Below, in pieces: positions 1 to 29,091 of a stretch of DNA of 31,401 nucleotides (positions within the stretch are counted from its first letter, which is position 1; every line of letters begins with the position of its first letter). The translations under genes were made by a program, and so were the position numbers. A model generated the notes under the pieces. That model worked only from the letters and a program-made list of their open reading frames with translations. It did no database searches and was not told the origin of the DNA. Source of the stretch: Amoebophrya sp. A120 (lineage: Eukaryota; Protista; Dinoflagellata); assembly GCA_905178155.1 (NCBI GenBank), contig CAJINV010000037.1, forward strand, positions 75,754 through 107,154, in the 5' to 3' direction.

Positions 1-1100
1 GGGGACACGGAGCAAAGCCGCGGCCAGAACCCTTTTCCGCCGCACTGGCACACGGAACAAAACCGCGCCCCCCCCAGAATTGGGCGAGGGCGGTGCCCGG
101 CCGGGTTTTTACGCAAACTTGCAAGGGGACACGGAGCAAAGCCGCGGCCAGAAACCTTTTCCGCCGCACTGGCACACGGTCGGAGCAAAACCGCTCCCCC
201 CCAGAATTGGGCGACGGCGGTGCCCGGTTTGTCGCGCAAACTGGCACGGGGACACGGAGCAGAGCCGCGGCCAGAACCGCCTCCGCCGCACTGGCACACG
301 GAGCAAAACCGCGCCCCCCCCAGAATTGGGCGAGGGCGGTGCCCGGTTTCTCGCGCAAACTGGCACGGGGACACGGGGCAAAGCCGCGGCCAGAACCCTT
401 TCCGCCGCACTGGCACACGGAGCAAAACCGCTCCCCCCCAGAATTAGGCGACGGCGGTGCCCGGTTTCTCGCGCAAACTGGCAAGGGGACACGGAGCAAA
501 GCCGCGGCCAGAACCCTCTTCCGCCGCACTGGCGCACGGAGCAAAGCCGCTCCCTCCCCCCCAGAATTGGGCGAGGGCGGTGCCCGGTTTCTCCCGCAAA
601 CTGGCACGGGGACACGGAGCAAAGCCGCGGCCAGAACCGCTTCCGCCGCACTGGCACACGGAGCAAAACCGCTCCCCCCCCCCCAGAATTGGGCGAGGGC
701 GGTGCCTGGTTTCTCCCGAAAACTGGCATGGGGGTGCACGGCGCAAAAGTGCGGCCCGAAGCTTCGCAGAATCAGCCGGGCGAAGGCGGTGCCTGCCCAC
801 TTTCTCGCGCAGACTGGCTCGGGGACATGGGGCAAGGCCGCGGCCTGCGCTTAGTTTCCCAGACTTGGGCGCAGGCTGTGCCCGGTTGGGTTTCTCGCGC
901 CAACTGGCGTGGGCACACGGAGCAAAACCATGGCCAGAGGCTCCCCAGAGTATGGCGAAGGCGGTGCGTGGCTTCTCGCGCGAACAGGCACGGGGACACG
1001 GACGAAAACCGCGGCCCGAAGCTTCACAGAGAAAGAGTCGGGCAGCCGACGGCGTTGCCTTCCCGGTTTCCCGCGGAGACTGGCAGGGGGACACGGACGA
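1..1100. repeat. GC-rich tandem repeat, about 120-bp unit (about 6 good copies over 1-729, decaying copies to about 1100)
   Basis: GGGGACACGGAGCAAAGCCGCGGCCAGAACC-type unit starts at 1, 125, 248, 367, 485 and 608, with degenerate starts at about 821, 911, 992 and 1087. Each unit has two related half-units. Confidence 0.92.
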
Positions 1101-2326: not shown

Positions 2327-5300
2327 TATGCAATGCAGATGTGTCTGGGTCTAGAAACCTGCTATGCTGAATGGTCATGATTGAGTGCTCCTTTCACCGC
2401 AGTGTAGCATGACAAATTTTCACATGCTTTCTGATGCTTAGTACGCTGCATTACAACCTACGATTTTTCAAGACGAAATTGTGGCCTTTTTGTTGCTTTT
2501 ATGCAATACAGATTTTTCAGGAGTGCTGGACACACAATACAGGTTCAACTCCTTTCCAGACCCAAACACATTTGCGATGCATATCCACACATTCCGGCCG
2601 TTTCGTCGTGCCGTTGAGAACTTCACTGTATTTCGTCTGATCACAGCTGCAAGTGTGGTTGCGAAACGCGTCTGTGCACTTGTTATCCATCTTGTTGAAT
2701 TGCGAACACGGGTTGCCGTCTGCACCGGGGACCAAGCAATCATCCACATCCTGGCAATACTGGTGCTGGGTCTGGTCGAAAATGCTGGTTTGGTAACCCT
2801 CGTCGCACTCGCACTGGTAGATGAGCGTGGTCCTGTTTTTATTTTTTGCATGAGTAGTTTTGGATTTTTTGTTTTCAATTTTCATCAGGCGCACGCATAG
2901 ACGCTAATTTTGGGCAAATCAAGATGCGACCACAAGGCTCAAAATTCTGTTAAACACGGCGGCACGCCAGGTTTTCAACGTCTTTAATTTGCCCCAAGTT
3001 ATCGTCTGTGCGTGCGCTTGTATCAGCCGCCGTTTTTCAATCGCAAAAGTCGAGTATACCGTCGTGATTCAGAAAAAAGATCATTTTTTCTGAGTACCAT
3101 ACCACCGTGATTCCGAAAAGTAGCAGTGAAACGATGAAACTTAAACATCAGAATAACCCGTACCGCCGTGATTCGCGACGATTAAACTGATTCCCGCCGT
3201 GATTCAAAGTAGCGATAAAATTGAAAACAAAATCAACGCAACACGGAAAACCAATTGATTCAAAGTACTTATGTACCGATTCCAACTGCAGTTATTCACG
3301 ACCTCCGCCCCGTACCGGTCGACTCCTAATCCGCTTCTGAAATCTTGACACGGGTCCGGCGGAAAGCCCGCCACCATCGTCGCGTTCCGGATTTCCTCAA
3401 CTGTTTTCCCCTTGAACGGATTGCCGCACTCGCAACTAACGTCGTTCACCAAATCGGTGCAGACATTTTCAAACCCGTACGGCCCACAGGGTTCGTCAAA
3501 CTCGTCGCACTCGTTGATTTCCATACAAGTGGTCGGATGGGGTTCCGGGAAACAAGCGGTTTTTTGACTCCTGACTCTTGTCGTGTTCTGAAACGGGTTC
3601 TGCTGCAAGTCGTAGAGAGGAGACTGATACACCACTTCTGTAAAGAAGAACGCGAGGTCTTGGTACGTCAAAGTGGTGTAATACGTGAAGTTGTATTGCT
3701 GCACTGCGGTTGCTGAATCTGAAGAACTGGGCATGGTATAATTCGAGTCGTTTGTGCCGTTCGCGTCAGAAGTCGTTGTCATATCGTTGCTGCTATTACT
3801 CCCGCCTGCTGACATCGCGAGTAATCGCAGGAAATGCTGCAGCGACATTCCGTTGGCCGCTGCAGAAGAAGCGGCGGCGCTGCTGAAGAAGGCTTCGTGC
3901 TTGGTCGTTGTGCCAAGAACTGTTGACCCACCGGATATTTTTTGCTGTTGGATGGACACATCAAAAGCCATCTCTTCTTCCTCGAATTCATCTGACAAAG
4001 CGACCATCATCGCGTCGTCAATCATCGCAGAGTCGCTTCTTCTACCATTCTGGTTTACTACCGCCCCGTTGCTGTTGCCTGTCATCCTTCGCACCCTATT
4101 GACAAAATCCTTCAGCCTGCGGATCGTGTGTTGCCCCGCTTGCACTGACCCGTTGACATAGACGTTTGTCGTGCTGTTTGTCGTGACAGCAGTCCCATTC
4201 GTGTCATTGGTGTCGTTGAAAACGTCTGGCGGACAGACTGGCGTGTCGTTCCGATACCCCGGCGCGCAGATGCAGTAGTAGCTGCCATACGTGTTGTGAC
4301 AAGAATGGTCTTCGGTGGTGTCGTAGGAAAATTTGTTGAAGTCAAACATTCTCCGCTCCAGCCCTTCTCTGATATCTCCACAGGGGCGGAGTTCCAGACA
4401 TTCGTCGATGTCCACACAAGATTCTTCGACCAAAGCGGGCGTTGTCACCACCGTTTCGTTGATACTAGGATCAAACATCGTCGCTTCTGGTCTCACTTCC
4501 GTAAACGTTTTCCGAAATCCCGGGGCGCACCCACAGGTGTAGTTATTCACTCCGTCGAAACAGCGGTTGGGCGGGACGAGTCCGCACGGCATGTCCGCGC
4601 AATCATCGATGTTGTAGCAGGTTTGGTTTAGCCGGTTTTCGAATAAAATTTCGTTGTCGAACGGGTTGAAACTGTAGTTCGTCGAAGTGAGATTAAACCC
4701 GATCCCGCATTCGCATTCGTGTCCGTCTAGTCGGTTGTGGCACTTGTTGTAGCGACTGTGGCCGCAGACGGGCTGCTTCGTGGGGTTTAGGGGGTTTTGT
4801 CCATCCGCGTTTTCGGGGGCGCAGTCGTTGATTTCCTCGCAAATTTCTAAACCAAATTCGTCGATCGCAAGCTGGAAACCAAGTCCGCAGGGGGATCGGG
4901 GGGAAAAATGAAACTATTGCCCTAGCCAGCGCCTCGGAAAAATCTTTTGGAAAATGAGTAGCAACAGGGTCGACGGGTGAAAGAATGAGTCAATGAATGC
5001 GGGGCGACAAAGGCCACCTATCGCTTCCGATTGATCCGGGGTGGGACCGGGGTGGGACCGGGGTGGGACTCGGGTGGGACCGGGGTGGTTGCAGGCGCAA
5101 AACCACTTACACGCCCTCCACAACAGAAACCTGTGGCCGCGACCTGTTTCTGGTCTCCCCGGATTGGACAAGATTTGTCGTACGACAAAACAGGTTCTGT
5201 CGTACGACAAACCCGAATTGTGTCGCACGACAAACCAAACCTGTCACCAGACAGGCAGAAACAGCGCGGGGGAAGAAATCTGTCATGCCAATTTTCTAGA

Positions 5301-8300
5301 AATGACATCACAGATCGCCTGTTGTTGCTCAGGACAAATGAATCTTGCAGACGCAAAGCAAGCCCTCAACAACCAAAAGCGGCGGGGGTGGGGCGGGGGT
5401 GNNNNNNNNNNNNNNNNNNNNNNNNNNNNNNNNNNNNNNNNNNNNNNNNNNNNNNNNNNNNNNNNNNNNNNNNNNNNNNNNNNNNNNNNNNNNNNNNNNN
5501 NNNNNNNNNNNNNNNNNNNNNNNNNNNNNNNNNNNNNNNNNNNNNNNNNNNNNNNNNNNNNNNNNNNNNNNNNNNNNNNNNNNNNNNNNNNNNNNNNNNG
5601 GGGTGGGGCAGGGGTGGGGCAGGGGTGGGGCAGGGGTGGGGCAGGGGTGGGGCAGGGGTGGGGCAGGGGTGGGGCAGGGGTGGGGCAGGGGTGGGGCAGG
5701 GGTGGGGCAGGGGTGGGGCAGGGGTGGGGCAGGGGTGGGGCAGGGGTGGGGCAGGGGTGGGGCAGGGGTGGGGCAGGGGTGGGGCAGGGGTGGGGCAGGG
5801 GTGGGGCAGGGGTGGGGCAGGGGTGGGGCAGGGGTGGGGCAGGGGAGGCTTTATCAATTTTCCGAAGTATGCAACAATTACAATATGGCAATAATTTCGC
5901 GCCGCCATTTCATAACTTGCAGGTGTAGGTCAACTCCCAATTGTCATCCGTGCACTCATTTGTCGTGTTAAACGTCTGAAACAGTCCCCTACCGTCATAA
6001 CCCCCGATCTGCCGCCGGTCGAAATCTTCGTACGTGATTGTCAACTTGCACGGATCATCCGCGCACGTCCGTGGCGGCCGGTACTCCTTGCAACTGGGTT
6101 GCTCCGGTACCGGACTCGAGTTTGGATCAGTTTGTTGCGCACCACCACCTCTCGACAAAGCATCTCGATCAACCATCCCGAATGTTCTGTCTTCATTCCG
6201 TTCATTCACCATACCACATTCCTGCTTCAAACACCCGCGCAACTCCGTAAACAACGTACAGCAGACGTCTTCGTACCTGGGTAGGTACTTCGTAGAGGAA
6301 TAGTTCCCGTCCGACATTAATCGGTGTTTTTCCGAATATTTCAAATCCCTGATGTCCAGCCCGTTCGAGATCGACGCGTCGAAATGCTTCGTGAGTGTGT
6401 ATTCCACTAGATGCTGCAGCACCGTTTGGTTGATGTCATCATCAAATGCGTGCTGAAAAAGGAGTTGCTGGATATCGTTTGTATTCCCTCCCGCCGCAAC
6501 AGCAGCATTTGTGTAGTTCGACATGTTCGAGCTGTTGGAACTACTGTTAGAATCGTTCAACATCATCCCAGAACTACCCGTATCGTCGCCATCATCAGCG
6601 GAAGTTGCTGTTCCGTTCGGATACACGATGCCAAAAGGATTGTTGAACGGGGTTTTCTATCCTGTGTAAAAACGTCCCCACCCCAGAGTTGTCATGCAAA
6701 TGCGCAATGGCAGGAGCATCTGTAATGCGCATCTCCATGGGAGGCATTTCCAATCGTGTTTTGACATTTGTAATGCTGTAAACAGGATGAAAAAGTGGCT
6801 TTCTCATGCGGCTTTCCTTGCTAGCCAGCACTACACTGCAGATGTAAACTTGTCATGCAGAACTCCCAGAACTTGGGAATTTGTGGTGCAGAGTTCCCAT
6901 CTTGACTATGGTGTGGGGACGTTTTCACATAGGATATTTTCACCATGCAGGTGGACCTTTGACAGCGGGAAAACAGCAAATCCGTGATCTCGTAGTAACT
7001 CGGCCGGATGCTTGAAAATTCCATATCAAATGTAAAAATGTCTGGGTCTGGAAGGATGCAAGGTTTGTCATGCACATTTTGCATGAGTCCTGATGTCTGT
7101 GATGCATGCCCTAGCGTCACAGATTATGTGAGGGCTTTCTCATGCCTATACCGCATGAGAAATGCCCTCTCGAAATGGCAAAAACTGGACCTCTTTTGCT
7201 GCTCATGCAATACAAATTTTTTACAATCCAAAAACAGCATCACAAGTTGCATTCTTCCAGACCCAGACATTTTTACAAGCCGTATTCCACGTTTTGAAAC
7301 AACATGCTCTGCTGGTCCAAAAAACCCGTGAAACGATTCACCGTGAAATTCGCAAAATTCTCCTCGTACACACTGCAGTTCTCCTGCTGTGTTTCGTTGG
7401 CTGGAGGTAACTGTTCTCTTACGATGAAACTTGGCGGAATTTTGTCGAAAAAGCTGTGCTTGAAACATTTTTCTTCGCACCGGTCTTGAAATTTCTGCTT
7501 CTGGGTAAGCTGCTTGTAGGCTGGCTTCTTTGCGGCGGCGAGTGCAGCGGATGTATTTGTCATGGCAACTGCAACTGCAGAAGATATCATCCCGCCCAAT
7601 CTGTTGCTTCCCGTCGCATCTCCGTACAGTTCGGTAATCAATTCCTTATCCGATTTGATCACCACTTCCGATTGGAAGACAAAGGGGATCCCGAGGACTG
7701 GCCCTTCCGTTCTGTTCACCGCTGTTCCTCCCGTTTCGTTCCCGGAAGTCTCGTTTCCTGTCATGTTCGACGAATTTGTCATGTTGGAATGATTTCCACC
7801 TGCACTCGCGTGCTTGTGCGCGGCTAGTAACCTCAGTCTCACGTTCTGTCCAAACATTTCCTCATCCTCGAAAAATTCGGTGAGCTCGTTTTTCGGCGCA
7901 GAATCGTATTCATTTTCGAAAACATCTTCTTGCTCCAGGTCGACATCTTGGTCGACTGTGTCTGACCCCGCCAGGAGACGAGCACTAGTGGCCGCACCTG
8001 ATCGCACGGGGCTTGCCTCCCTCGTAATTATCTCCCCATCACTCCCAACCGCAACCGCCTGCGCCCTCGAGGACGGGACGGCGTTTTGGAGGAACAGCAA
8101 ATCCCCACTCACCATCCCAGTCGCAGCAGTAGCAGAGGTGATCCAGGTTTTGAACTCGGTCGATCCGAAGAACCCGTTACTGCTGCTGGTCCCACCACCA
8201 CCAGCCTCAAACCGCGGAAAAATCCTGTCCAAAACCACACTCCGCATATTCTCCGCCGCTTTGAAATTCCAGAAGTGGCCGATCTCAAACCCGAACGTGA

Positions 8301-11300
8301 TTTGACACGAATCGGAATGTTGACTCGTCGTCACGTTCGTAATTTGGAAAAAATCGGTCCCGTTTTTCTGGCTGTTGGTCGAGTCTGCTTGGGATAAGAT
8401 GGGGTAAAAATTAGTTGAATACGAGCTGTTTTTCATGTACTCGGATTTGTACACGAAATCCTTCACGGCGTTCGAAAACGCTTCCTTGAACTTCAAAACC
8501 CGCTGTTGTCGCAAACTCGCGTGGGCGAGGAAGGGGGTAGAGCTTAACGCCGATGAAGAACTACGTGTGCTGGCGTTCGTCCCGCCAGTTGTGCTAGAAA
8601 CTACTGCGTTGAGATCCGTGAAGAAGAGATCCGGGCACATCAAGGTTCTTCTTGGCGATGTAGATGATGTTGAAGTCGAACTCCCAGTCGACCCCGCCGC
8701 ACTGCTCGTCCCGTTCTGACTCCCACTACTAGTATTGCTGCTGTTGCTACTTGTTTCAGCGCTGGTTGTAGTATTGCTGCTGTTGCTTGTACTACCACTT
8801 CCACTGCTACCGCCTGCGCTGTGTCCCGCCAGTTCTCGCAAGGAATGCGGACCGCCACCATGACCGCCGCCGCTGCTACTATTGCTACTCGAGGAAGAGG
8901 AATTGCTAGAACTAGAGTTGTTGCCGGTCGTCGTAGCATCACCACTGCCACTGCTGCTGTTCCCGGAGGTAGAAGAGGAGTGGTTAGTACCTCCACTGGC
9001 AGCTGCCGCTCCGGTCGTGCCGTCCTGATCCGCAACAACTTCCTCATACCCCAAACTGTAAACCAACGTCGTCCTCCCCTGCAACACAAAGTGCGTCACG
9101 TCGTTCACTGGTGGTTCTGCGACCATCGGGAAGAACTCCTGTTCGTTTTGCCCGGCTGATGCTACGGCTAAATCTTTCCAATAAACCAAATCCGGACAAT
9201 AAGCCAAAATCTGCTGTTTCTCCTGCTCATACTCCAAGCCAAAGGGACTGTCGCAGTTTCGGTCGAGGCATTCCAAATAGTGGTAGAAGTAATCCGAACA
9301 GCAGGTATCCTGGATATTTCATCAAAGTCAAAAATCCCCCCTCCCCATATCAAAACCGAAATCTGTGATGCGGGATTTGTGTACACGGGATTTGTGTACA
9401 CAAATCCAATCTGTCTCGCAGTAGAGGACTGCAGGCAGATGCAGCGCCTGAGTAGGGGCGTTCTGCTGTAGACACCTAGCAAGGCAGGCATATCCTCTAC
9501 TGTAGGCGATACGGCATTACAAAGTTTTGCGAAGCGCGGCCGATTCTCTGGCTTTGCCTTCTTGCAAAACAGGGGCGATTTGTGGTCACAGATCAGCATC
9601 ACAAATTTTCAGTAGTGCCCCTTTTCGGTATGGGGAGGGGGGATTTTTCCTCTCAATATATTTGTTGAGCTGTTCGAAGACACAATAGCCGTTCCGTTCG
9701 CAGCCGCATCACACACTTCCGGCATAGCGTTCGCCCCGCTCAGTCGGTAAAACGTCGACGTTACTGGCCAGCTGAGCTTTTCGTGGTAGTCTGCGCCTGT
9801 CGAGGTCAGCGACCCGCTCGCCCGGCAGAACTGCTCTTTACACTGGCTGTAGGACATGCCCGGCGCGGTCTCGTTTTCCGGGGTCGAACTTGGTAAGACC
9901 GGGGGGAAAGTCTCGTAAGTCCGAGCAACGTCGAGGTAGAAGAAACTGCTAGAAGTTGTACTCATATCAGCACTAGTATTGGTCGTGGACGTTGTATTGC
10001 TGCTATTGGAAGATGTCAACGCCCCTCCGAGCTGCAAGTGCTGCATAAACGGCGCTGTGTCTAGGAAGAAAGTTCCACCATAATTAGTAGTTTCGTTACT
10101 TGATGTTCCCGTTGTCACCGCAGGCACGGAGAAATAGCCAGAATCTGCCCCCTTCCGGAACTTCTCATCTAAACTCCCGTCAAACGACATCCCGATCTGG
10201 GACGAAAGTTCGAAATACACTAGCAGTTGTTGCACGTTCGAATTCATTTTATCCTCAAGCCTCCTGACCTCCAAAAAGTTGAAGCTTTTCGAAATCAAGT
10301 CTTTCGTCGTGTTACTACTACTTCCATTTTCCTCGATAAAGGCTGCGCCAAGCGCTTCCGAAAGTTTTTCCGAGACGTGCCTTTCGAAAAACCGCTTCGC
10401 AACCCCACTGTGCTCCTGCTCGCCCGCCAGGTTTCCACCGGAAAAGGCGGCTAGAACGTCCACTGTCACGGCCATCGGCGCTGTTCTGTTTTCCGCAGTC
10501 GCAAGCGCGACGGCCGCTGCTTCGTGGTCTTGTAGGAAACTTGTGGCGTCAACAGAGTAGTAGCCTTTGATGGATTTCACATTCAAGCTCGTTGGCTGGA
10601 TCTGCAATAGAGGATTCGCTGACGCAGCGATCGTCGCATTGCTCGCATTCCCATCTGATGCACCACCTGCTGGCGATACTGCTGTTGCCGTTGCATTCCC
10701 ATTCGTGACGAAAAACGAGGAAAAATCCGCACACTGTCCGTTCTGCAGCGAACTCGTTGCGTTTTCGTAATTCGCCGCAATCGCATTGAATTCTTGCATC
10801 AGGCTCCCAGACGTCGCTAGCGTTTCGTCGCTCTCGTCGTACCAGCCTCCGTGAGAAATTCTAGGGTACAGTGCTTCATCGGCCAGGTTCGCGACACAGG
10901 ACTGCGAATTGTTTGCCGCCAAACTCTGCATACAGAAATAAACGTCGCGGAACGGGAGGTACGTTGCAACTGGAGCTGCTGCTTTCGCACCTGGTGAAGC
11001 AGCAGTAGAAACCACCGGTGTATGGGAAAGTGCTACTCGACCGTATAGGTGGTCGCTCGTGAACGCTGGTCCCGACGAGGATGAAACCGTTGCTGTGCTC
11101 GTTGTGTTATTTTCACCAGCAGCAGCTCCTGCCGTCGTAGAAACAGGCGGCGCTCCACCCAGACAGCACTTCCCATTTTGCGCAAACTGCAACATACTGC
11201 TGTACATAGACGACGTTGCTGCGGAAGAAGTAGATGCTGTTGCGTTTCCATCACCACCCGCTGGTGACACCACCGCGGCTGTGTTGAAAATATCGCTCCT

Positions 11301-14300
11301 CGTGAAGGGAAAGTACTGCGAAGTGTGCTTGCTCAACAAAGAGCTTGATGAAGACGTCTCGTTCATTCCTGCTCCTGTTCCTGTACTTGTTCCTTGATCC
11401 ACCGTGAAGCAATCCCGATACTCCGCCAAAGTTACCGCCTGGTGTTGAAACTTCTCTGTCACCAATCTTGGCGCGTTCGGGACAAACCGGTTGTAGATGT
11501 GCTTGTCAAGACTTTGCTGGGAAGATGTTACCGAAGACGAACCGGCTCCAATCTCCATCCCAACCACATCATCCGCGTTGTAAAACCGGTGGTCCAACGG
11601 TTTCTCCGCCACAAACGCCATCTGCGCCTTCTCGTCGGAGAAATGCCGGAACTGGTAACTCGGCGGATGAACCACGCAGCGGTAAAATTCGCACGAAAGG
11701 CGTCCCGGGAAGGAAAAAACGTCCTTCGCCAGGTCAGAAGTTGTCTTCGGATGGTACACGACCTGATTCTTCGCGAATTCGTTTGAGGCAGACGTGGTGT
11801 TGTCTTCGGGATTGAAAACATCCTCGCTGACACCGAAATTTGGTGGAATGTTCGGGAAGGCCTGTTCGAACAAGGTTGGCGTGCTGCTGTTCGTATCTCC
11901 CCCGCCGCCCGCACCGCTGACAAAATCACTTGCTGTGAAGTTGTAGTCCATGGACGACGCGTCAGCCATAGCTGCATTCATCCCCGTCGCTGTTACTACA
12001 GGAAACCACCCTAAGTTCACGCGGAACGTCACCGACGTACAAAGCTCCGCGTCTGGGTAAGGGCAGCAGATCTCCGGCTCCACTGGAGATCCTTGTGCGG
12101 CTCCTCCCGTGCCGGGGGCGGGACTTTGTGATGCAGAATCGCCACCAGCACCCGCATATCAAAATGAAAAATCCCCCCTCCCCATATCAAAACGGAAATC
12201 TGTGATGCGGGATTTGTGTACACAAATCACATTTGTCTTGCAGGAAAGCATGGCACGCAGATGGCAAGCCTAAGGGAGGGCCTTTTGGTGTGGGGCCTAG
12301 CATGGCAGACGTCTGCCCTGGAGGCCTGGCAGCATTACAAACCGCATGCATATCGCGGCGGCCTCTCTGGATTTGCCCTCTGGCAAGACAGACCGGATTT
12401 GTGGTCACAAATCTGCATCACAAATTTTCGGAAGGACATGTTTTCAATATGGGAAGGGGGGATTTTTCCTTGCAATACCGCAGTTGTGTCTGTCGTGTTG
12501 GTCCCGTTTGCTGTGTCGTTCACCGCGTCGTCTTCCTCAGAAACAGGGCCTACCCTGCTTGTGTTGGATGACGTGTTCGTGGTCGTATTCGACCCATTTG
12601 ACGTATTCGTGTAGTTGGAACTTGTTCCCATGTCATCTTCATCATACTGCGTTCCGTCGGAGGTTGTATTCGACGCAGTAGAGGAATTTCCAACCTGATC
12701 CGCAGTTGCGTCAGAAGTATTCGAAGCCGACGTTGTATTCGAAGAATTTACAGGCTGCTCTCCTGCCCCTGACCCCGTACTAGAGCTTCCGCTACTACAA
12801 GCCTTCACGACCGCAGCGTCAACTTTCACCTGGTCGACCCAGAGCCACGACAGCTGCTGACCAGCAGAAGTAGATGAATTTCCAAGAACCCGCTGAATTT
12901 GTTCCTGCTTCTGCGTCAGAAAGAGTTCCTCCAGTGTCGCGCCCCAATACACCCCCGCCTGGTAGGAAAGTTTCTCCGGTAATATTTTTAGATCACTCGC
13001 AAAAGAACTTGAGACTGTTGCGAGTTCTGTCCGCAACTGAGTCACTTCCGCGGTGTAGCCGGGCGACGTCGAGACTGCTTGCTGATACTGAGAAGAACTT
13101 GTTGTAACTCCACCATGATCAGTGACTACACTACTGCTCCGTCTGATCTCTTCAGGGTCCAGCGTGACCTGCGCAGTGGTGCTTCCCAGGTAGAGCTGCT
13201 CTTGGAAATTTGGTCTTGGCGTACTAGATACGGCTGCTGAGGAGGACGACGACGCAGATGTAGTCGCCACCGCCGTCGATGTGCTACTATTAGACGCATT
13301 CGACGTATTGGTCTCATTGCCATGCCCAGCTGCACCCCCACTAGGTTGCCCTCCTGCTACAGCACTAGAAACTGCATCGCCCACCCCAGCACTCGCAATC
13401 CCAGTCGACGGAAAGACCAGCGTGATTTTCTGCGATAACCTTTTCTTCATCACCGTCTCCGAAAATTGCACCCCGCACTTCTGCTCGATGATGGTCTGTG
13501 TGCTACGGGTGAAGTAGGAGCTCGTGACTGTGGGGGATTGATCATGATCACTTGCCTGTTTTATCGGCAATGACTCGGAAAGCGCAAGCGCTTGCAGCTC
13601 GAAATCTCGCTGCTGTTCGACCGTCGGAGATGAATTTTCAGTTCCGGAAGCCGCGACACAAGTTGCGTTACTCGTCGTCGTCCCAGTGTCGTTCGACGCG
13701 TTGACTGCAGCCGCAGCGGAGGTGGATCCCGCCTCCGAAGCACGCATGAGAAGTTTCCTCTCCTCCTGAAACAAACAGTGTCCCACGTAAGCGAACAAAA
13801 TGCAGCACTTCTGACTTGATCCCCCGAACCTGCTGTCGAAAGATGTCTCTTGCGGGAACAGATCTGAAGATGCTGCACTAGTTGCACTACCTGCTTCGCC
13901 CAACCCGGTAATCGCACACTCTTCGTCGAAGTGGCGAAGGCTCCCGTCGTAGTTTTTCTCCATGGAAACCCCGACTAGCTTCATCAGATACAAAGCCTCC
14001 TGGTACTTTGCTGCGCAGGTTTGTCTCGCTTGGAGCAGTCTGCTCTCGTTGCTGTTGCTCGATGTCGGCACAGGTACTGGACAGGCAGGTGTTGTCGTGG
14101 TGTTCGAATCTGATGAACTATCATCTGCTACGGCCACAACAGCTGAAGTGCTGGAGTTATTTGTCGTGTTCGTGGAATTGTCTTCTCCTCCAGTTACTAC
14201 CGCGGCACCTGCTGATGTTTGCGCAACAAAGTCCCTATGGTTCAAGTAGCCCCACATCGAAAGTTTCTCGTCCTTGTAATCGTAGTAATACCGGTATACC

Positions 14301-17300
14301 CGCCAGTCGCCACTGCTCATCACCCGCTTCGTCGTGTACTGCGTCGTGAAAGTCTCGATGTTTTGGTCGCATCCTGAGTAAAAACGTCCCCTCCACCCCA
14401 GAGTTGTATATGCAAATGCGCAATAACAGGGACATTTGTAATGCGCAGCATCCCCATGAAAGGCCTTCCCAATCGTGATTTGGCATTTGTAATGTTAACA
14501 AATTGGCTTTCTCATGCGGCTTGCCTTCCTACGCACCACTATACTACACACGGGAACTTGTCATGCACATCTCCCAAAGCTTGCCGATTTGTCTAGCAGA
14601 TTTCCCGTCTTGATTCTGGTCGTGTGGGGACGTTTTTCCTCACGATAGGTCCAGAGAGGTGTTCAGCGCATTTGTGATGGTCTCGTTGTTTGTGTCGATG
14701 TCGAGGGTGTTATGGATTGCAAATATGTCTGGGTCTAGAAGGATGCAACTTGTGATGCTGCGTCCCGATTCTAAAAAAATCTGCATTGCATGGGCAGCAA
14801 GAGTAGTCCAGAAGCTGCTAGGCGGAGGGGGCGTTTCTCATGCGGTATAGGCATTAGGAAGCCCTCACAAAACCTGTCATGCTAGGGCATCCATCACAGA
14901 CGTCATGGGTCATGCAAAACGTGCATGACAAACCTTCCATTCATCCCGACCCAGACATATTTGCATTTGATAGGTGTTATTGTGCATCGTGTTTTCCCGC
15001 GGGAGATTCTCACTCACCGTCGTGTTCACATCGGGCAATAACGGCGTTTGCAGCGCTGGCTGATATCTCGTGTCGTACGGCGTTGCGGTTAGCAATAACG
15101 GGTGTGAAATCGTAGCTGCGCCGTCCACCGAAGTGACGTTCGCGTTTTGCCTCCTTTTCATATGCATTGCAAATATGTCTGGGTCTGGAAACTTGTGATG
15201 CAAGGAAGGGAATAGTGAACTCACTATGATGCGCTGCCAAGCATGACAAGTTTTTTTCATGGCTCTGAGCTGCGTACTCCGCATGACAAACTGCGTTTTT
15301 GCATGACAGGGAGGAGGAGCTCTTCGCGGCCATGCAACACAGAGTTCAGGGTCATGCCAGACTAGCATGACAAATCCAGCAATCTCCCAGACCCAGACAT
15401 TTTTGCATTTGATATTTCAGCGCCTGGGCCAGATCCTCCCAAACGGTTTGCGAGTTCGGGTGGGAGGTGGCTTTTGCAGACAGAAATTGTTGCGAAAAAG
15501 TTGTACTAGAACCTGCAGGACTACTACTACTACTAGTGCTAATTCCAGCACCAGTACCCGCACTATCAGAGCTTTCGTCTTGCAGAATGAACCTCAACAA
15601 CAAATCCGCAAAGAAACAGTCAAATTCCGCTCGGTTTCCCGCTGACACGACCGCTAGCCTCCCGAGTTGCACCTTCGCGAGTAGCCCGTAGGTCGCCTTG
15701 TGTATCCTCAAGCTGTTCGCTTCGCTACTGTCTATCTTCAGTGCGGTCTGCAGCTGCTGTTGTGCTTGTGAGGTGGATGTGGCACCCGCACTGTTCGTCG
15801 TGGTTCCTGAACCTGTTGATTGCAGATTGCATTAACATGCCATCACATGTTTGTATTGCAAATTACCTACACAGCCCCTTAAAAGCGTGCAGTTAAGCTG
15901 TTTAGTTATTGACTTCCCTTCATGTAGTCACAACACTAAGCTGTCAGTATAAAGCTGTTGAGTCACAACAATAAGCTGTTTTAGTTAAAAACAACAACAG
16001 CACGCAGTTTAAGTCACAACACTAAGCTGTCACAACCTGCACGCTGTTTAATGATTGTACTGCATCACATGGAAGGGAACACAGCTTTTAAGCGGATTGC
16101 AGATGATGCAAGCACGGAAATATCCCGGCAGGTTTTTTCTCTTGTTTCGAATACCAGAAGAACAGGACGAGCCCCTGCGTGTCGTGGACAACATGCAAAC
16201 AGTAAAGCCAAACAGCGAGAAGGGGTACGATGCTGCGAAAGTGAGGAAACTCGTCACCCCGAACGTGAGGGAGGAGGCAGATAAAGCCCAGGAGCTTTAC
16301 GACGACATGATGAAACCACACTTGGCCATCGACTTCGAACAATTCTTCACCCTATGGGATAAGACCAACAAGGCTGCAAGATTTTTGGAGTACATTCAAG
16401 GACGAGGGAACACCCAGCTTGAGAATTCACTTATCTCGAGCGGAGGCGGTTCTGGCGACACTGGCAATGCGCTTCTCCGTGGTTTTCCTCAGTTTGAAAA
16501 GGGCATGTACTACCTGGACCAGTGGACGCAGGAGGCCTTCCAGCTTTATGGAAACGTCGTCAACATGTGCAACCATCTGATGCACAAGGTGACCGGTGGC
16601 GCATTGGTACCTCTCCCGGGGCAGGGCGGTAACGGAGGGTGGTGTAAGAAGAAGGAAATGACCCCCGAACAAGGCTGCCAGCCGGATAATCTCGCGGAAG
16701 AAATATTTGGGCCAATTCCGGAGGCTAAGAGCGCTGCGGATATATTCGAGGAAACCAAGAATGGGAAAGACGTTACGGTGAGGGTGAAGCCGCTGTTTGT
16801 AGTACGGCGCCCGATAGAGGTTTTAGAGCCGATCGAAATACCATATGTGATTGCACGGAAAAATCCTACGTACACAGGAGATCGTTGCGGCGTAGCTATA
16901 TCGAGAGGAAAAGCTGATAAGTATTTTCATTTGCCTGAAAAATAAATATGAATTTTTTCTGCACCAAAGTAAAATATTTTCTGAGCCGACGAACCGCATA
17001 GTACCTGAACCTGATGTGGCACCCGCACTGTTCGTCGTGGTTCCTGAACCTGTTGATCTAGAGCTTTAACACCCGTTAGCATGAGAAGTGGTGAATTTGT
17101 AGTGAATTTTGCATGCCAAATTGCAGATGAGCCCGCCGGGACATTGTCCCTCTTGGCCCTGTTCTGGGAAGTAGAAGGCCCTGCACCGCGCAGCAGCCGC
17201 GGGCTTTTGCGCAGTGGGCAGCCAGAGGACATGGCCGGGGCGCCGTTCTTTGGGCAGATTTTTGCGCCTCCCCGTTCTCGCAGAAGAGCACTGCAGCAGC

Positions 17301-20300
17301 CGCGGCAAAGACGCCAGAAATAAAGGCCGCGAAGCGCATACAACTAAGCAAGAAGGCAGGCAAGGACGAAAGGACCCGGCCGAGAGCTTTGACGCATTTT
17401 CCCGGCAGGCGCGTGAAATCTTGTGGCATTTTTCCGGCAGGCGCTTTGATGCATTTTCCGGCGGCAAGCTAGCGTCCGCGGCCGAATCGTGCCTCCCCTT
17501 CCGCCCGAGGCTACTCCCAGATATCCAAGTCCAAGCCGAGCCAACCACAACTCGTGAGAGCATACATGTTGAACTAGTGCCCCTGTGTTCAGGCGTCGCA
17601 CTCCCTTTCGACCATTCCAGAGAGGAACTTCTCAGGCAGACGCGCAGAAGAGTAAGAGCCACCCGATCCACCTTCTTTAGTTACATACGCACTGCACAGC
17701 CCGGCGAGCCCCCGCAAGACCACCTCTTTCGGTGCTGCAAGCGCCACCACGCGACGAGCAGCCCTTCACGCTATGTGGGATGCTTGGGCTCGTGTGTCTA
17801 ATACGTAGCGCACTTGTCTTTTAAGTAAATGAAAACGCAAGTGGTCATGCAATACAAATTCACTGCAAATTCACCCTTCTGTACGCTAACGACCGTTGAA
17901 GACATAACTGTTGTCGTCGTGGCACCCGCACTGTTCGTCGTGGTTCCTGAACCTGTTGATGTGGCACTATCAAAGGAGCAAGTGAATCACTTTCAAAAGA
18001 ATCATAGGGTCGAAAAAAAAAAAATTCGGAGCGTCCCCAACTGCCGTAGCGCCTGCAGCTTTTTTCCCCGCGCCAGACACAGCTGGTCGGTAGATTGCAG
18101 TGGGCGAATGCTTGAGAAGGCTGCGACCAAAAGCCCCAGGCGTCGCATTTTGGTAAGGAGAAGGCTGCGAGATGTAGTGCGCAGAAGATGCCATAGAAGA
18201 TACCCCAAGACCAGCCCAAAGCATCATACCGTGGGGCATAATGCTACTCCGCATGGTGCTACTGGCGCACTATTCTTACTTTTGCCCTACTCTACTGTTA
18301 CCAAGTGGCAGAAGTGGAACAGTGGAGGTGTAATCACTTGAGACGTGCAGCCTGTTTCAGACGAAAAAAAAGCCAAACCCACTTGATATCTGCTAGGGTG
18401 ATTTGACGCGAAAAAGACGTGTTTCGGGCATCAATTTGATGCCAAAAATCGCGGTTTTTTGCAGGGGTGATTCAAGCAGATACTAAGCGGGAGGAGTCAA
18501 ATGAATCATAGGGCTAATTGATAGCTACAAAACGCGAGGTGATTACACCTCTTTTTTTGCTTCGAAAAAGATGAATTTTTGGCAAAAATTGAGCTTTTTT
18601 CAGAAAATCCGACACCCTCGGGACGCTACGCCCGACGGTATGGAGGTGTAATCACTTCATTTTTATGGTGTCGCTTTTCCTATCTTTAGCAATGGGCTTG
18701 TGCTTGGTATTTTGGGTTGCGAATGCTTCCCCCGAGTTGTTTGCAAGCTATTCAGGCGCGATGGCCCCAGCGTCCACTCATGGCCATTGCGTTCGTCCCC
18801 CGTAGCCACCAACCAAATAGCGCAAACCTTATCGAGAAAGGCGCGACCTTCCTGAGGAGCGTCGCTGTGTCTCAGGTTGTTTGGTTGTATATATTGGGCG
18901 CTTCCTTATGCGTGCGAGCCGGGCCATGCACTGCGATACTTGGAAAGTTTTTTTTTTCCGTATGGTGATTCATTTGTAATGTGATTCATTTACCCCTGTG
19001 ATAGGCACCCGCACTGTTCGTCGTGGTTCCTGAACCTGTTGATAGTTCGCGGATTATTTGCTTTGCCTGCTCCTCGGAGACGACTATTGTGGATTTTCTT
19101 GTTTGTTCCTCCGTGTTGTAGTTGTCCTCCATGATCTCATCTCGCATCTCCTGCATCACAGCATCATCCGAACTAGATACAACCAACGCCCGGGAAGGGG
19201 AAGATGCTCCTTCGTCTCCCAGCATCACAGAGTCCTGTTCGACTTTTCTCCTCCCAATTTTCCTCCGTCTAACCCGCCTTTGCACCGTTTGCACGACCGG
19301 AACGACTTTTTTTACCACGATTTTTTTCCTTCTTCGGATTTGTCTCACTTGCCGCTTCGCAATTTGCTTCTCCTGGATCTCCTCCTCCATCCCGGCAGGC
19401 ATCATAGAACTCAAGATGAAGTCCTCGTCTAGAAGCCTCTCGTCGTCAAAAAACAACCTTGCCTGCACCGAAGACTCCAAGTCGCGGAGGGACCGCGCGC
19501 GGAGAAGGGAACTCGGGCTATAACTGCTGGAGGAAGAACTGCTACTATTGCTGCCATTCGCGCTGCTGTTCGTGTCATTCAGCACATCTTCGGTCCCGTT
19601 GGTTCCGTTCGTCTCTGTCACATTCGTTTCGTTGTATTCTGTTACATTCGACGTCTCGTTGTACTCTGTTACATTCGTCTCGTTGTAATATTCTGTTACA
19701 TTGGTTTCGTTGTATTGTGAGGAAAAATCCCCCCTCCCCATATCGAAAAGGCACGCTTCCGAAAGTTTGCGCTGCTGATTTGAGGTCACAAATCACGTTT
19801 GTCTTGCAAGAAGACAAGGGCAAAAGCTTCGCCCCAATTATGGAGGCGATTTGTCATGCTGTTGGGCCTAAAGCGGAGCCGTTTGCCATGCTGAACAACT
19901 AGACCGATACGCCCCTGCATAGCCTGGGGATCTGGCCGCGATGCCTTCCTGCAATACAAAGCCGATTTGTGTACACAAACCCCGCATCACAGATTTCCAT
20001 TTCGATATGGGGTGGGGGGATTTTTCCTTTTGATACGTTGAATTCGGTTTCATTCACGGTCACATTCGTGAAATTCGTGACATTTTCAGATATCCTAAGT
20101 AAGAACGCACCCACGCCAGAGTTGTAATGCAGATTTGCAAAGACAGAGAGACTTGTAATGCGCATCACCATGAGAGCCATTTCCAATCCTGTTTTGGAAT
20201 TTGTGATGCTGTGAACAGGATGAGCCGATGAATCTGTAATGCGGCTGCACTTGCTAACCTGCACTACACTGCAGACCTCAACTTGTCATGCGTGACTCAC

Positions 20301-23300
20301 AAAACTCCTAGGTTTGTGTTGCAACATCCCCTTCCTGACTCTGGTGTGGGTACGTTTTTACTCAGGATATCAGACTCGAAATATTCTGTGGTCTCGTTGG
20401 TCGAATTTGTCGTGTTGACGGGCACCACATCTTCTTCTTCCGAAGCTGCTTGTGGCGGCGGTATCCTCGCGAAGCTGAAGTAATCCCTGGTGTAATTCGT
20501 GAAGGTTTTTCTCGTCGTCACCACCTCCAGCCGGACAAATTTCTCGAATTTAACCTGGTTGTTTAGTAGAACGGAGAAATCGGTTTTGGCAAAGTCGTAC
20601 ATGCGCTGATAAAAGGAAGACGTTGTATTTATCTTGCTGTTTTCCCTGTACGACTTCAAAAAATCGTCCAGATAACTCCCAGCGAACGCGTTGAACGCAT
20701 TCCCCATCGCTTTCGCGAAGAAGTGGGCGAGCAAATCTTCGTTCTGAAGAAGCATGTCTGCGGTTTGCTCCGAGTTGGCTTCGAGTAGGAGTTTCCCCTC
20801 CAGAATCGCATTGCAGGAAGTGGATTTTTGTGCTGTGGTCTGGGTAGAAGTTTGCGTTGTGTTTGAAGAGGTAGCTGTTGTTCCTCGTGTAGTTCCGGCG
20901 TTGTAGGAATCTAAAGCGGTTGCTTCCGCGGAAATATCAACGACTGGCTGCTGTGGAGCGCCGGTGGTCGCAGTAACAGTAGCTGCTGACGCAGCCACTA
21001 CGTCCCGGAACAGCCAGAATGGGTTCCTTGACGATGTTGCTCCTCCTACCGCGACCGTGGCGCCTATTGTCGTGCTATTCGAAGTCGCACTCAAAGTGTT
21101 GTTCCCAGTTGCGTTTACGTCACTTTCGTCATCTGATACGGACCCAGCTGCAGTGCTGTTTGTCACATTAGAAAAATCTGTCTCATTGGAGGTTCCATTT
21201 ACCACAGAGGATGATGAATTCGTTACATTCATTCCCATGTCGGAGGAGGAAACCGCAGCATCGTCGTACTCGGTCGTTGTATTTGAACTGTTGCTATCGT
21301 TCGCCACTTGTGCTGCTGCACTACCTGCAACTACTACATCCAGCCTCGGATCCAGCGGCAGCCAAAGTTCGTTATCGTGACAATCTCTCACCGCCTGGAC
21401 GATTCTCGGGCACGTGAGAGGCTCGAAAAAGCCTGCAGATCTGCTTGGCAAAGTAAACGAAATCCGCAAACCTGTTGCACTATCTTCAAAAACTCTCGCT
21501 AATGGGTGGGGCGGTGGAGTCGTCGTTGTGGTTACCACTGCACCCTGTGATGTTGCTGGTGATGAATCCGATTCGCCACTGGCGCTTCCCGTGCTGTTGG
21601 AGTCATTCGCTGCTGACGACGTCGTATTCGAACCTAATATTCCAGAGCTGCTATCATCCTCGGTGGAGGACGTGGTGTTATAATTCCAAGACGTCGAGCC
21701 GTTGCTTGCATTGGTTTCGTTCGTCGTGGTACTATCCGATGCTGAGTAGTTGTAGTTCGACGTATTGCTTTCATTACCAACAGCAACTGCACTGTCGTCG
21801 TCATACGCGATCGCCTGTGAAGCATTGCTTGCAGAGGACCCTCCTGTCGCTGCCTGTGCATATATCTGTTCCCCGAGACCGGAAATTTCCGCCTTCAACC
21901 AGTCATAGAAGGCGAAAGAAAAACTGATTTCACTCGCACTCGTGTTCTGTTGAAAACAGTTCTGGTAAATGGAATTCGCGTTGGTGCCAGAAAGAACGTC
22001 TTTCACACTCTTATCAATTGCAAAAATGTCTGGGTCTGGAAGGATGCAATTTGTATTGCTAATTGTGGATTGAATTGAATTGAAGTAGCGACGCCCCCTG
22101 ACGTGCCTCGGTAGCCGATTGCTCTACCAACCGGAGGTGCTAAGTACATGCTTACTTCTTCCTTCGTCGAGCACCTTATTCGCCATACAAACCGTTCGGT
22201 GAGCAATTACCCGGACTGCCGGCCCAATTTGTGCCGGTTTTGGTGTTTTAGGGAGATACCCGCAACGCCCCCACGGAGTTGGCGAAACCCTGATAGCCAG
22301 CGAGACGCAACCCTTGGCGGACCTGAACGACCTGAGACCATCCCCACCTTTGGATGTGTTGTCTCCCGCTTGTGCTGCACGTTCTGCTTCGAGCCGCCCA
22401 GACCCTGTGCCCCGCGGGATCTCGGTTCGCACAATGTTGGTTAGTACGCATCGTATCCTGATCGCGGCCGGCGAGTTTGTAGTTGGGGGGGCTACTTCTT
22501 TTCTTGAGGGGTCGAGGTAGTGGCATTGCTAATTGTGGATCGTGCAAAAATCTGTGTTGCATGAATGCCAAAAGTTGTCCACTTTTGACCAAGTTGAGAG
22601 GAAGTTTCTTATGCAGATTAGGCATGATAGGGATCTCACCGAGTCTGTCATGCTAGGTCCTGCATTCCAGACGACATGGATCATCGAAAATCTGCATGAC
22701 AAGTCTCGGAATCTTCCAGACCCAGACATTCTTGCATTTGATAACTCTCCTGTTCTAGCAAATCCCAAATCAAATCCTCGTTGGTGGTAAAAGCCCGTTT
22801 CAATTGCGAGACGACAAGAGTCCCTTCCGGGTTTGGTACCACTGTGGTTTGCGCTTGTGTTGAAGATGCTGTGTCGATTATGAGGCTCGATCTTCTCACA
22901 TTGCTCTCCGTTACATAAGGCAACGGAGTGGTGGTGGTGGTGACTGCTACAGATTGGCCTGTAGTTGTTCCTGTGGCGTTGTTCCCATTTGGCGCAGCAC
23001 TCTGATTTGAGGAATTCGTGTCGTTTGTGCTGCTGCTGTTTCGATGATCCGCGTCAGAAGTGTTCCCGTCAGCACCAGCTGCGGTCGTATTCTGCATGTA
23101 GTACTCATCTTCCGTCAGCAGCAACGCTAGTAACTGCTGACTCGTCAGGGATTCTAAGCCGTAGCTCGTCTTCACCTGCTCCACCGTCTCAAATTTTGTC
23201 GAGCTAGAGGACGAAGCAGATGAGGAACTGGTAGCTGCAGCCATACTAGCAGTGGTGGTTGTTCCACTATTTCCTCCGCTGCCGTGGTAGCTACCGTAAA

Positions 23301-23511: not shown

Positions 23512-24133
23512 TTTTCTCCTTCTCCTCGGTTTGTGAAACATTTTCCAGGTCGCGTCCGCCCCTCGGGCTCCAGGATCTTCTGGTCGTGTGCAGCTGCCTT
23601 CTTGTGGTTGCCGCATCTTCGTGCAAGATGTGCTGGCGTGTCCCCTACTTGATGTCTTCTTCATTCCGTCTTATATCTCGTCGAGTGTCCGTGGTTCTCC
23701 CTCCATCTCTTTACCCACCGACACCGCTTGCGTTCCTTACTTTGAAAAAAAATTCTGGCACAACCAAAAACAAGTATTCATTCCGGAAAAGAAAAGAAGG
23801 GCAAGTCGTAGTTCGTCTCTTGCCGTAAGAACTACTTCTAGAACGCAGTAGTAGACGTAGTAGCAGCGCTACTTTAGAAGTACTTACGATTCATTTTTCA
23901 AGACCGCCTTGGTAACAAACTTTGTGTACAGGAGTTTGATGATCATATGGTTATGGATTGCACTTCAGCACTGGTTCATTCATTTAAGAAGATGTCTTGG
24001 TGAAACTGTTTTTTTTCTGACCACAGTTCGTCGGATTGCGGTCTACTTCTTGAAAAAAAAGCAACGACAAGAGGAAGCGCAAGCACGTCCGAGGGACAAG
24101 GACGGCTCAAACGAGACGGAATGGAGTTGGCTG

Positions 24134-25041: not shown

Positions 25042-25271
25042 CATCGTACGAAAAACGTGTTTCACTGGAACGATTTAATTTTGCGAGTTTTGCATTACAG
25101 ACTTGCTCCAGTACATTAGCAGTAGCACTACAAAGGAACAAATTTGTCATCAGAAAGCAAAACCAACAAATCGATTGTTTTGCAAGTGTAGCAAGCCAAA
25201 CACTTCTGCGACTGCGAATCATGCATTCTCTGCATTACAAGTTTACAGTGAAACATCATTTCCTTCCGATA
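25042..25271. mobile_element. TIR element family G (230 bp)
   Basis: CATCGTACGAAAAACGTGTTTCACTG / CAGTGAAACATCATTTCCTTCCGATA. Perfect TSD TCCTG. Confidence 0.78.
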
Positions 25272-28080: not shown

Positions 28081-29091
28081 CTATTTCTGCCGTCCGCGGA
28101 ACCCGAGCATGGTTTTGTTGTCACTCCGCTTGATCGCATGCACGACGTGCTTCAGCGAGATCGTCGACTTTCCCGCGTGCTCGGCGAAGGCGACCATGTA
28201 CTTGGTAATATCCTGCAACCACAGCTGGAACAGATCGCGGATCTCTGGGATGACCTTCCGAGACAGACGGTTGATGCCGCCCCGCCGCGCCAACCGCCGG
28301 ATCGCCACCGGTTTCAAATCCGACATCTGGTCGACCAACTGCTGCTTCGGATACTGGGCCAAAAACTCGGTGCGGGTCAGGTACCGTTGTTCTGGTATCA
28401 ACTGCAAAAATGTCTGGGTCTGGAAACTTGTGATGCTGGGTGGCGTCTCATGATGAGGCTCCAAATGCTGGCTCAGCATGACAAGTTTCTGAGCTCCTCG
28501 GTGTTGCCTATTTCGCATGACAAACTGCGCTTCTGCATCACAGAAAAACGGAGCCCTTGGGTAACGTGCATGACAGATTTAACAGTCATGCCAGGCAAGC
28601 ATGACAAACACGAATTCTTCCAGACCCAGACACTTTTACATTTGATATCTGGCATCATGGTACAACTACTGCTTCCACCCGGGAATTGTTCTGGTAGATG
28701 AACCGGAGTCATGCTCGCCAGTTTCTCCTATCAAATGCAAAAATGTCTGGGTCTGGAACATTCTGAGACTTGTCATGCATGTTTTGCATGACCCAGGATG
28801 TCTGTAATGCACGACCTAGCGTCACAGATTTTTCCTGATGCCTACTCCGCATGACAAACGCCCTCCCCGCGTAGCACAAACTAGACTCCTCTTGCTGGTC
28901 ATGCAATACAGCTTTTTTTAGAGACCAAAATTAGCATCACAAGTTCAAATTCTTCCAGACCCAGACGTTTCTGCATTTGATATCTCCATATCGCTCACAA
29001 TCGCCTGGGAATCGGACTGCAGCTGTTGCTGTAACTGAAATTTTCCGTTGGTTTTGTTAACCAAAGAACCGGCCTTCTTGGAGCGGGCCAT
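28081..29091 (-). CDS. H4: Divergent histone H4-like protein, 164 aa, 3 exons (29091-28988, 28728-28653, 28395-28081)
   Basis: KPVAIRRLARRGGINRLS...EIRDLFQLWLQDITKYMVAFAEHAGKSTISLKHVVHAIKR...TMLGF aligns to canonical H4 KPAIRRLARRGGVKRIS...[20 protein letters not shown]...TLYGF. Both introners excise in frame back to ATG 29091, which has an in-frame stop upstream. Confidence 0.88.
28396..28647. mobile_element. Introner A6 (252 bp) in the H4-like gene
   Basis: TIR family A. TSD TCTGG. Removing 257 nt gives TMMPE|QRYL. Confidence 0.92.
28729..28982. mobile_element. Introner A7 (254 bp) in the H4-like gene
   Basis: TIR family A. TSD TCTCC. Removing 259 nt gives SDME|KLAS. Confidence 0.92.

What the first reader, a model, noticed from the sequence alone, without database searches (positions are those of the whole stretch)
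7024..20035. Orientation-independent excision: the same family sits in both directions in one gene
Seen: A2 is the reverse complement of A3 and A5, and C3 is the reverse complement of C1 and C2. All are frame-neutral under the same rule. Spliceosomal introns are polar (donor, branch point, acceptor). Inference: recognition is symmetric, through a TIR-paired stem that brings the exon ends together or through a transposase-like end-binding protein.
Basis: partly seen in the sequence, partly recalled or inferred. Interest (0 to 1): 0.82.

Follow-up and report, generated by a model that had tools for sequence, protein, structure and literature searches.

The report
Flip-proof transposon introns in parasitic dinoflagellate
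Short mobile DNA elements with mirror-image ends sit in both directions inside one gene of the marine parasite Amoebophrya; they match an intron class already described in this organism, and they are likely cut out of the RNA either way round because both ends carry the same signals, not because the cut itself is symmetric.

Summary
Observation confirmed. A2 is the reverse complement of A3 and A5, and C3 of C2 and C1, also when the terminal inverted repeats (TIRs) are trimmed off. All are TA..TA elements with a 5-bp target duplication. Removing the element plus one duplicate gives open frames of 2,626 and 1,106 codons. A neighbouring histone-H4-like gene matches a deposited Amoebophrya sp. A120 protein only under that rule. 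These are the introner elements of Farhat et al. 2021.

The inference of symmetric recognition does not follow. The TIRs show the same 22-28 of 30 end bases in either orientation, so a polar spliceosome would not notice a flip. Spliceosomal introners that work in both orientations are already described in Polarella. The junctions also look polar: in one register, 8 of 14 match the published commonest A120 boundary types on the sense strand, against 1 of 14 on the antisense strand (post hoc, small n).

No RNA read spanning a junction was seen. Best reading (0.55): a relaxed U2-type spliceosome helped by the TIR stem. Non-spliceosomal excision stays open (0.25). The scan's notes report similar hairpin introns in other dinoflagellates (unchecked).

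The parts
7024..7284 (.). A2: 261-bp family-A TIR element, 5-bp duplication TTCCA; opposite orientation to A3/A5/A8, same as A7
14711..14972 (.). A3: 262-bp family-A element, duplication GGTGT; reverse complement of A2
22012..22743 (.). A5: family-A element, duplication ACTCT, same orientation as A3; 732 bp because of a nested insert (22071-22524) between two copies of a 16-bp duplication
9320..9658 (.). C1: 339-bp family-C element, duplication TATTT; terminal base mutated at the end that is 3' in the transcript
12157..12477 (.). C2: 321-bp family-C element, duplication CCGCA; same orientation as C1
19713..20035 (.). C3: 323-bp family-C element, duplication CGTTG; reverse complement of C1 and C2
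6658..6936 (.). B1: family-B element, duplication TTTTC; B1-B3 all lie in one orientation
14370..14647 (.). B2: family-B element with an imperfect duplication (GGTCG/GGTCC), useful for fixing the cut register
20091..20369 (.). B3: family-B element, duplication TCAGA
15161..15414 (.). A4: A-type TIRs with a different core (related to A6), duplication TTTCA
2327..2583 (.). A1: A-type TIRs, imperfect duplication (TTCAC/TCCAC); its mRNA junction would separate registers 0-1 from 2-5
17968..19003 (.). D1: 1,036-bp TA..TA element, duplication GGCAC
5913..15820 (-). Host gene, downstream block: 2,626 open codons after removing B1, A2, C1, C2, B2, A3, A4 each with one duplicate; S/T/N-rich, no Pfam hit in the four exons scanned
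19004..23670 (-). Host gene, upstream block: 1,106 open codons after removing C3, B3, A5; that both blocks form one gene is inferred from the shared 14-residue repeat unit at their facing ends
28081..29091 (-). Histone-H4-like gene with A6 (28396-28647) and A7 (28729-28982); its spliced product equals the deposited Amoebophrya sp. A120 protein P0001 only with element+5 removed at both

Best explanation
These are short TA..TA-ended elements with 5-bp target duplications that interrupt one reading frame in both directions, and they are likely removed from the pre-mRNA by a relaxed, direction-aware U2-type spliceosome that finds the same signals at both ends because the ends are inverted repeats. 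Shown: ends, duplications, both orientations, open frames after removal of element+5, agreement with a deposited protein at two sites. Inferred: (1) a cut-and-paste transposase supplied in trans inserts them without regard to strand; (2) the TIR stem, predicted at about positions 10-30, brings the ends together and may stand in for the U1 snRNA that was not found in this genome; (3) the cut lies 1 nt before the 5' TIR and 4 nt after the 3' TIR, so the element supplies +2 U, +3 A of the donor and a U-run near the 3' end, while the host's duplicated bases supply +1 and the acceptor dinucleotide; (4) insertions whose duplication resembles an acceptor are kept more often.
For: All 14 elements start with TA on the sense strand, 13 of 14 with TAT; position 11 from the 3' end is T in 14 of 14. 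End identity across orientations is 22-28 of 30. All nine commonest A120 non-canonical boundary types have T at +2 (PMC7789003 Table S4), which the element's first base supplies in the 1+4 register. In that register 8 of 14 window elements fall among those nine types on the sense strand (16.6% expected from exon 5-mers, P = 7e-4; about 0.008 after allowing for the 12 register/strand choices looked at), against 1 of 14 on the antisense strand (Fisher P = 0.013). The middle base of the duplication (acceptor -2) is A in 9 and T in 1 of 14 on the sense strand (P = 0.027), and A occurs with both element orientations (A3 and A5 against A7; C1 against C3). Terminal-base changes are at the 3' end in 2 of 14 and at the 5' end in 0 of 14. 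15% of canonical GT-AG introns of A120 share this DR/IR layout, and U2, U4, U5, U6 and 83 of 89 spliceosomal proteins were found. Polarella class 12 (5-nt duplication) uses the same geometry, with the last duplicated base plus the first element base as donor.
Against: No register gives GT-AG for any of the 14 elements examined, and 6 of 14 fall outside the nine common types. U1 snRNA was not detected in this organism. The polarity test is post hoc, n = 14, and rests on a published table whose junction placement inside direct repeats may be aligner-dependent. G.U versus A.C mismatches in the TIRs show no sense-strand bias (17:12, P = 0.46), so selection on an RNA stem is not shown. A candidate branch adenine 16 or 18 nt from the element's 3' end is absent in B3. 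No RNA junction read and no deposited protein for the large host gene were found, so splicing of A2, A3, A5 and C1-C3 is inferred.
Confidence: 0.55

Rival explanations
1. A non-spliceosomal, structure-guided nuclease and ligase recognises the TIR stem and cuts at fixed, staggered distances from it.
For: Strong predicted stems in both orientations. No GT-AG in any register. U1 snRNA not found and over 60% non-canonical introns. Euglenid TIR introns are released as circles, not lariats (review PMC11282704 section 6).
Against: Orientation independence needs no such machine. Sense-strand bias of the duplications and the invariant +2 U. Canonical GT-AG introns share the same layout. Outer 7-8 nt unpaired in A2 and A3.
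Confidence: 0.25
2. A transposase-like protein binds the element ends and directs removal, either from DNA (as in ciliate internal eliminated sequences) or as an adaptor on the transcript.
For: The ends are typical transposase substrates and element+5 removal equals precise excision.
Against: In run X1, which behaves as DNA, the eight longest listed pieces run from unique sequence into the elements without differences at depth 42-44, and none of the 15 joints shown (861 more not shown) skips exactly one element. Farhat et al. found no transposase in A120, although Gozashti et al. later describe an A120 family with integrase-like frames. DDE transposases act on double-stranded DNA (recalled).
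Confidence: 0.1
3. The large gene is a dead or silent copy, or one orientation is poorly spliced; the open frames only reflect recent clean insertions.
For: No deposited protein for this gene turned up in three searches. Frame restoration is automatic for such insertions.
Against: 2,626 and 1,106 codons stay open across ten insertions that are 18-33% diverged from their family mates and partly eroded at their ends. A7, in A2's orientation, is removed in a transcript-based gene model. The predicted full length (over 4,160 aa, inferred) lies outside the length ranges.
Confidence: 0.1

Closest known systems
Introner elements (IEs) of Amoebophrya sp. A120 (Farhat et al. 2021, PMC7789003)
   Same: Same organism by a 100% protein match. 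Inverted repeats starting TAT, 7 looser bases, then A-run; 3-5 nt direct repeats at the junctions; about 240 nt; non-canonical boundaries; hairpin proposed to join exon ends.
   Different: The paper's four uses of 'orientation' in the main text and the supplement passages shown all concern gene orientation. It does not say that one family occurs both ways round, and it leaves the junction register undefined. TIRs here are about 25-30 nt, longer than the 8-20 nt it reports.
Polarella glacialis and Aureococcus anophagefferens introners (Roy et al., bioRxiv 10.1101/2020.10.14.339549; Huff et al. 2016 only as cited there)
   Same: TIR/TSD elements that make introns in either orientation (classes 6, 8, 10, 2, 7, 3). 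Class 12 has a 5-nt duplication and the same 1+4 geometry.
   Different: Those keep near-canonical boundaries (GA/GC/GT donor, AG acceptor). Here only the +2 base is fixed and AG ends 3 of 14.
Euglenid nonconventional introns and Fritillaria borealis non-canonical introns (review PMC11282704 section 6)
   Same: MITE-like origin, TIR stem joining the ends, repeats at the junctions, non-GT-AG borders.
   Different: Euglenid ones leave as circles by an unknown route; Fritillaria ones are spliceosomal with AG-AC/AG-AT borders. Which route Amoebophrya uses is open.
IS3EU/GingerRoot DNA transposons (PMC10045372, passages)
   Same: TA..TA termini.
   Different: Their duplications are usually 6 bp, here 5 bp; no transposase was found in the window.

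Membership tests
Amoebophrya A120 introner element | Inverted repeats at the two ends | tested here: met
   22-28 of 30 terminal positions complementary in 14 of 14
Amoebophrya A120 introner element | 3-5 nt direct repeat at the junctions | tested here: met
   5 of 5 in 12 elements and 4 of 5 in 2, of 15 candidates examined; one (about 25330-25650) unresolved; random rate 0.0016
Amoebophrya A120 introner element | Repeat begins TAT, 7 looser bases, at least three A | tested here: met
   TAT in 13 of 14; A at positions 11, 12 and 13 in 13 of 14 each
Amoebophrya A120 introner element | Repeated across the genome | tested here: met
   30,400 of 264,029 contigs of run X1 lie on the 18-kb stretch, piled on the elements
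Amoebophrya A120 introner element | Removal from mRNA shown by RNA reads | tested here: inconclusive
   No exon reads in three RNA runs; indirect support at A6 and A7 from a deposited protein
Canonical U2 spliceosomal intron | GT-AG borders | tested here: not met
   0 of 14 elements in any of six registers
Canonical U2 spliceosomal intron | Branch point and lariat intermediate; U2/U6 dependence | not testable with these tools
   needs lariat sequencing or inhibition
Euglenid-type nonconventional intron | Stem joining the two ends | tested here: met
   predicted only; no covariation test
Euglenid-type nonconventional intron | Release as full-length circle | not testable with these tools
   needs circular-RNA sequencing
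IS3EU/GingerRoot | TA..TA termini | tested here: met
   both ends TA in 12 of 14
IS3EU/GingerRoot | 6-bp target duplication | tested here: not met
   5 bp at the TA..TA boundaries
IS3EU/GingerRoot | Cognate DDE transposase | not testable with these tools
   no whole genome held; the one candidate frame scanned had no Pfam hit

The most novel reading that the evidence does not exclude
Amoebophrya removes tens of thousands of transposon-derived introns with a machine that measures from an RNA stem rather than reading splice-site sequence: a non-spliceosomal nuclease-ligase that cuts 1 nt before and 4 nt after any TAT..ATA hairpin. Every insertion of these elements would then be silent in either direction, and this would be a second nuclear mRNA splicing system.
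Probability: 0.25. Interest if true: 0.85.

Novelty: already known. Interest (0 to 1): 0.36.

Why it matters
The elements and the hairpin idea are published, and either-orientation introners are known from another dinoflagellate, so the finding is not a new system. How Amoebophrya splices its non-canonical introns without a detectable U1 snRNA is still open in the papers I could search. This window adds two handles. Inverted copies of one family in one gene are a built-in control for orientation. Elements with imperfect duplications (A1, B2) can fix the cut position, which short reads cannot do inside a perfect repeat. The hint of a fixed 1+4 register with an invariant +2 U points to a polar, spliceosome-like reaction and is cheap to test genome-wide.

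Tried and rejected
No whole genome is held, so no genome-wide orientation count was possible. The run search listed no RNA holder. Three raw RNA runs under the same species label gave 125, 3 and 414 reads on 5900-23900, nearly all partial matches to element sequence from other loci and none in the exon-only bins; this is no evidence either way. Runs X7-X9 and the histone-like gene were not examined with reads. Protein searches for the large gene found nothing: 832-aa exon against 1,457-4,160 aa proteins, the same exon against all 50% representatives, first exon against 542-2,000 aa proteins. G.U versus A.C test of an RNA stem: 17:12, not significant. Frame analysis alone cannot tell d = 5 from -1, 2 or 8. 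A8 could not be placed in a gene and was left out of the strand tests; E1 (25042-25271) was left out because its gene context was not examined. Assembly artefact rejected: unique contigs of run X1 cross the listed element borders without differences. TIR-only similarity as the cause of the apparent inversion rejected. IS3EU membership not claimed (5-bp, not 6-bp, duplication). The 296-codon frame at 16055-16945 has no Pfam hit and remains unidentified. Huff et al. 2016 could not be read. No earlier notes on this genome.
Full report
Setting. The window is eukaryotic, about 50% G+C, with a very long S/T/N-rich gene and a histone-H4-like gene on the minus strand. The last exon of the H4-like gene is 100% identical over 104 aa to a 164-aa protein named by its sources as Amoebophrya sp. 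A120 (P0001). The window therefore comes from that parasitic dinoflagellate or a near-identical strain. No whole genome is held.

Anatomy. Self-comparison and a boundary search examined 15 candidates and resolved 14 elements of 252-339 bp (A5 is 732 bp because of a nested insert). Each has inverted ends and a 5-bp direct repeat on both sides, perfect in 12 and 4 of 5 in two (A1, B2); the random rate of an exact match is 0.0016, although the boundary search was free by 6 bases each way. A generic scan added D1 (17968-19003), E1 (25042-25271) and one weak hit. On the sense strand all 14 begin TA, 13 TAT; positions 11-13 are A in 13 of 14 each. In run X1, which behaves as DNA (depth 43-59 in exon bins), unique contigs run into the elements without differences, and 30,400 of 264,029 contigs pile on the stretch, mostly on the elements. 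The elements are real and high-copy.

The observation. A2 matches A3 on the opposite strand at 81.7% over 262 nt, and C2 matches C3 at 75.8% over 326 nt. With 50 nt trimmed from both ends the cores still prefer the opposite strand: A2-A3 155 against 34, A2-A5 91 against 21, C2-C3 117 against 47, C1-C3 51 against 37; shuffles reach at most 26 for these pairs. Alignments show colinearity over the whole length. Family A proper has A2 and A7 one way, A3, A5 and A8 the other; family C has C1 and C2 against C3; B1-B3 share one orientation, as do A4 and A6. Left in place, 12 of 14 elements shift the frame and the other two carry stops in all frames. Removing each element plus d bases gives 2,626 and 1,106 open codons for d = 5, and similar lengths for -1, 2 and 8, but not for other values. 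P0001 is reproduced only with d = 5 at both A6 and A7, 1 of 25 combinations. The A120 gene models were built from assembled transcripts and protein alignments (PMC7789003 section 25), so this is indirect RNA support for precise removal of A7, which lies in A2's orientation. There is no such support for the A3 orientation or for family C.

RNA evidence. No listed holder of the stretch is on record as RNA. Three RNA runs under the same species label had no reads in exon-only bins. Three protein searches found no product of the large gene; two were length-limited and a full model is probably longer than 4,160 aa (inferred). Excision of A2, A3, A5 and C1-C3 is therefore inferred from the open frames and from the class they belong to. 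Frame restoration by element+5 is automatic for such an insertion; the informative part is that long frames stay open across ten insertions, some with eroded ends.

Does orientation independence imply symmetric recognition? No. The first 30 bases of each element are the same at 22-28 positions in both directions (14 of 14). A machine that reads a donor at the 5' end and a U-run or branch region within 30 nt of the 3' end would see nearly the same sequence after a flip. Roy et al. (bioRxiv 10.1101/2020.10.14.339549, passages) describe Polarella classes that create introns in either orientation, as reported for Aureococcus. Gozashti et al. 2022 allow for opposite-orientation family members in their method (PMC9860276, passages).

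Signs of polarity. The cut can slide over six registers inside the repeat; none gives GT-AG for any of 14 elements. The nine commonest non-canonical boundary types in A120 (GT-AC, CT-AG, AT-AG, GT-CG, GT-AA, CT-AC, AT-AT, AT-AC, TT-AG; Table S4) all have T at +2. That fits the register in which the intron is one duplicated base, the element and four duplicated bases. In this register 8 of 13 elements matched those types on the sense strand and none did in the other five sense registers; on the antisense strand the counts were 1 of 13 in the same register and 2 of 13 in one other. With D1 added: 8 of 14 sense (16.6% expected from 11,544 exon 5-mers, P = 7e-4, about 0.008 after 12 looks) and 1 of 14 antisense (Fisher P = 0.013); the middle duplicated base is A in 9 and T in 1 (P = 0.027). 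A symmetric transposase target would give A and T alike (inference). A8 and E1 were left out for lack of a known gene strand. The test was designed after seeing the table, n is small, and how the published junctions were placed within repeats is not stated in the section I read. Polarella class 12 uses the same geometry with canonical bases, and 15% of canonical A120 introns have this layout.

The stem. A2, A3, C3 and C2 with 15-nt flanks fold with z of -8.7, -3.9, -7.6 and -8.9. Positions 15, 20 and 25, as sampled, pair with high probability in both strands in nearly all 13 elements folded; the outermost bases are weakly paired in 7 of 13 on the sense strand. A TIR folds this way whatever its role, and G.U versus A.C mismatches show no sense bias (17:12), so a function for the stem in RNA is not shown.

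Mechanism. Most likely (0.55) a relaxed U2-type spliceosome, with the stem juxtaposing the ends and the TIR supplying +2 U and +3 A. U2, U4, U5, U6 and 83 of 89 proteins are reported in A120, U1 snRNA is not; a review reports a U1-70K homologue in strain A25 (PMC12787238, passage). Rivals: stem-guided non-spliceosomal excision as suggested for euglenids (0.25), a transposase-like end binder (0.10), a dead gene or one unspliced orientation (0.10).

What is known. Farhat et al. 2021 (PMC7789003; I read the abstract, sections 10, 11, 12, 16, 25, 32, passages, and supplement passages including Tables S4 and S7; figures are not held) describe exactly these elements in A120, 29,850 copies in 1,954 families, and propose the hairpin. 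Gozashti et al. 2025 (PMC12130899, passages) treat A120 introners as diverse TIR and other transposons. I found no statement on element orientation for Amoebophrya. Huff et al. 2016, the final 2023 version of Roy et al., subscription papers, figure images and bioRxiv supplements were not seen and may bear on this. Also seen as passages: PMC11282704 (plus section 6), PMC13326754, PMC8469720, PMC10045372.

Verdict. A real and correctly described feature of a known intron class.

Noticed in passing
window 15776-19043: A 40-45-nt coding unit (14 residues, S/T/G-rich) occurs four times, separated by three long inserts. D1 follows the TA..TA/5-bp rule; the inserts at about 15821-17001 and 17059-17906 show no matching 5-bp duplication at their apparent ends, and how they are spliced is unexplained.
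   Followed up: partly
window 16055-16945 (+): A 296-codon frame antisense to the host gene inside a single-copy insert (depth 43 in run X1); no Pfam hit.
   Followed up: partly
window 22055-22540: A 454-bp insert nested in A5 between two copies of a 16-bp duplication, with a short (TGAAT)n run at one end; looks like a non-LTR or SINE-type insertion (resemblance recalled).
   Followed up: partly
window 28081-29091 (-): Highly divergent histone-H4-like gene with a long N-terminal extension; the next hits, H4-named or histone-fold, are only about 38% identical.
   Followed up: partly
window 3204-4913 (-): 569-codon frame with EGF/calcium-binding EGF matches, probably the 3' part of the large host gene, which would be a surface or secreted protein (inferred).
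   Followed up: partly
window 25042-25271 and about 25330-25650, 2886-3020, 30342-30603: Further TIR elements: E1 with a 5-bp duplication, a B-like end with unresolved boundaries, an inverted pair of another family, and A8 with no evident coding flank.
   Followed up: no
window 1-1100; 5036-5850; 31054-31401: A G+C-rich 120-bp tandem array, 11-bp G-rich tandem repeats around an assembly gap, and a 179-bp tandem pair.
   Followed up: no
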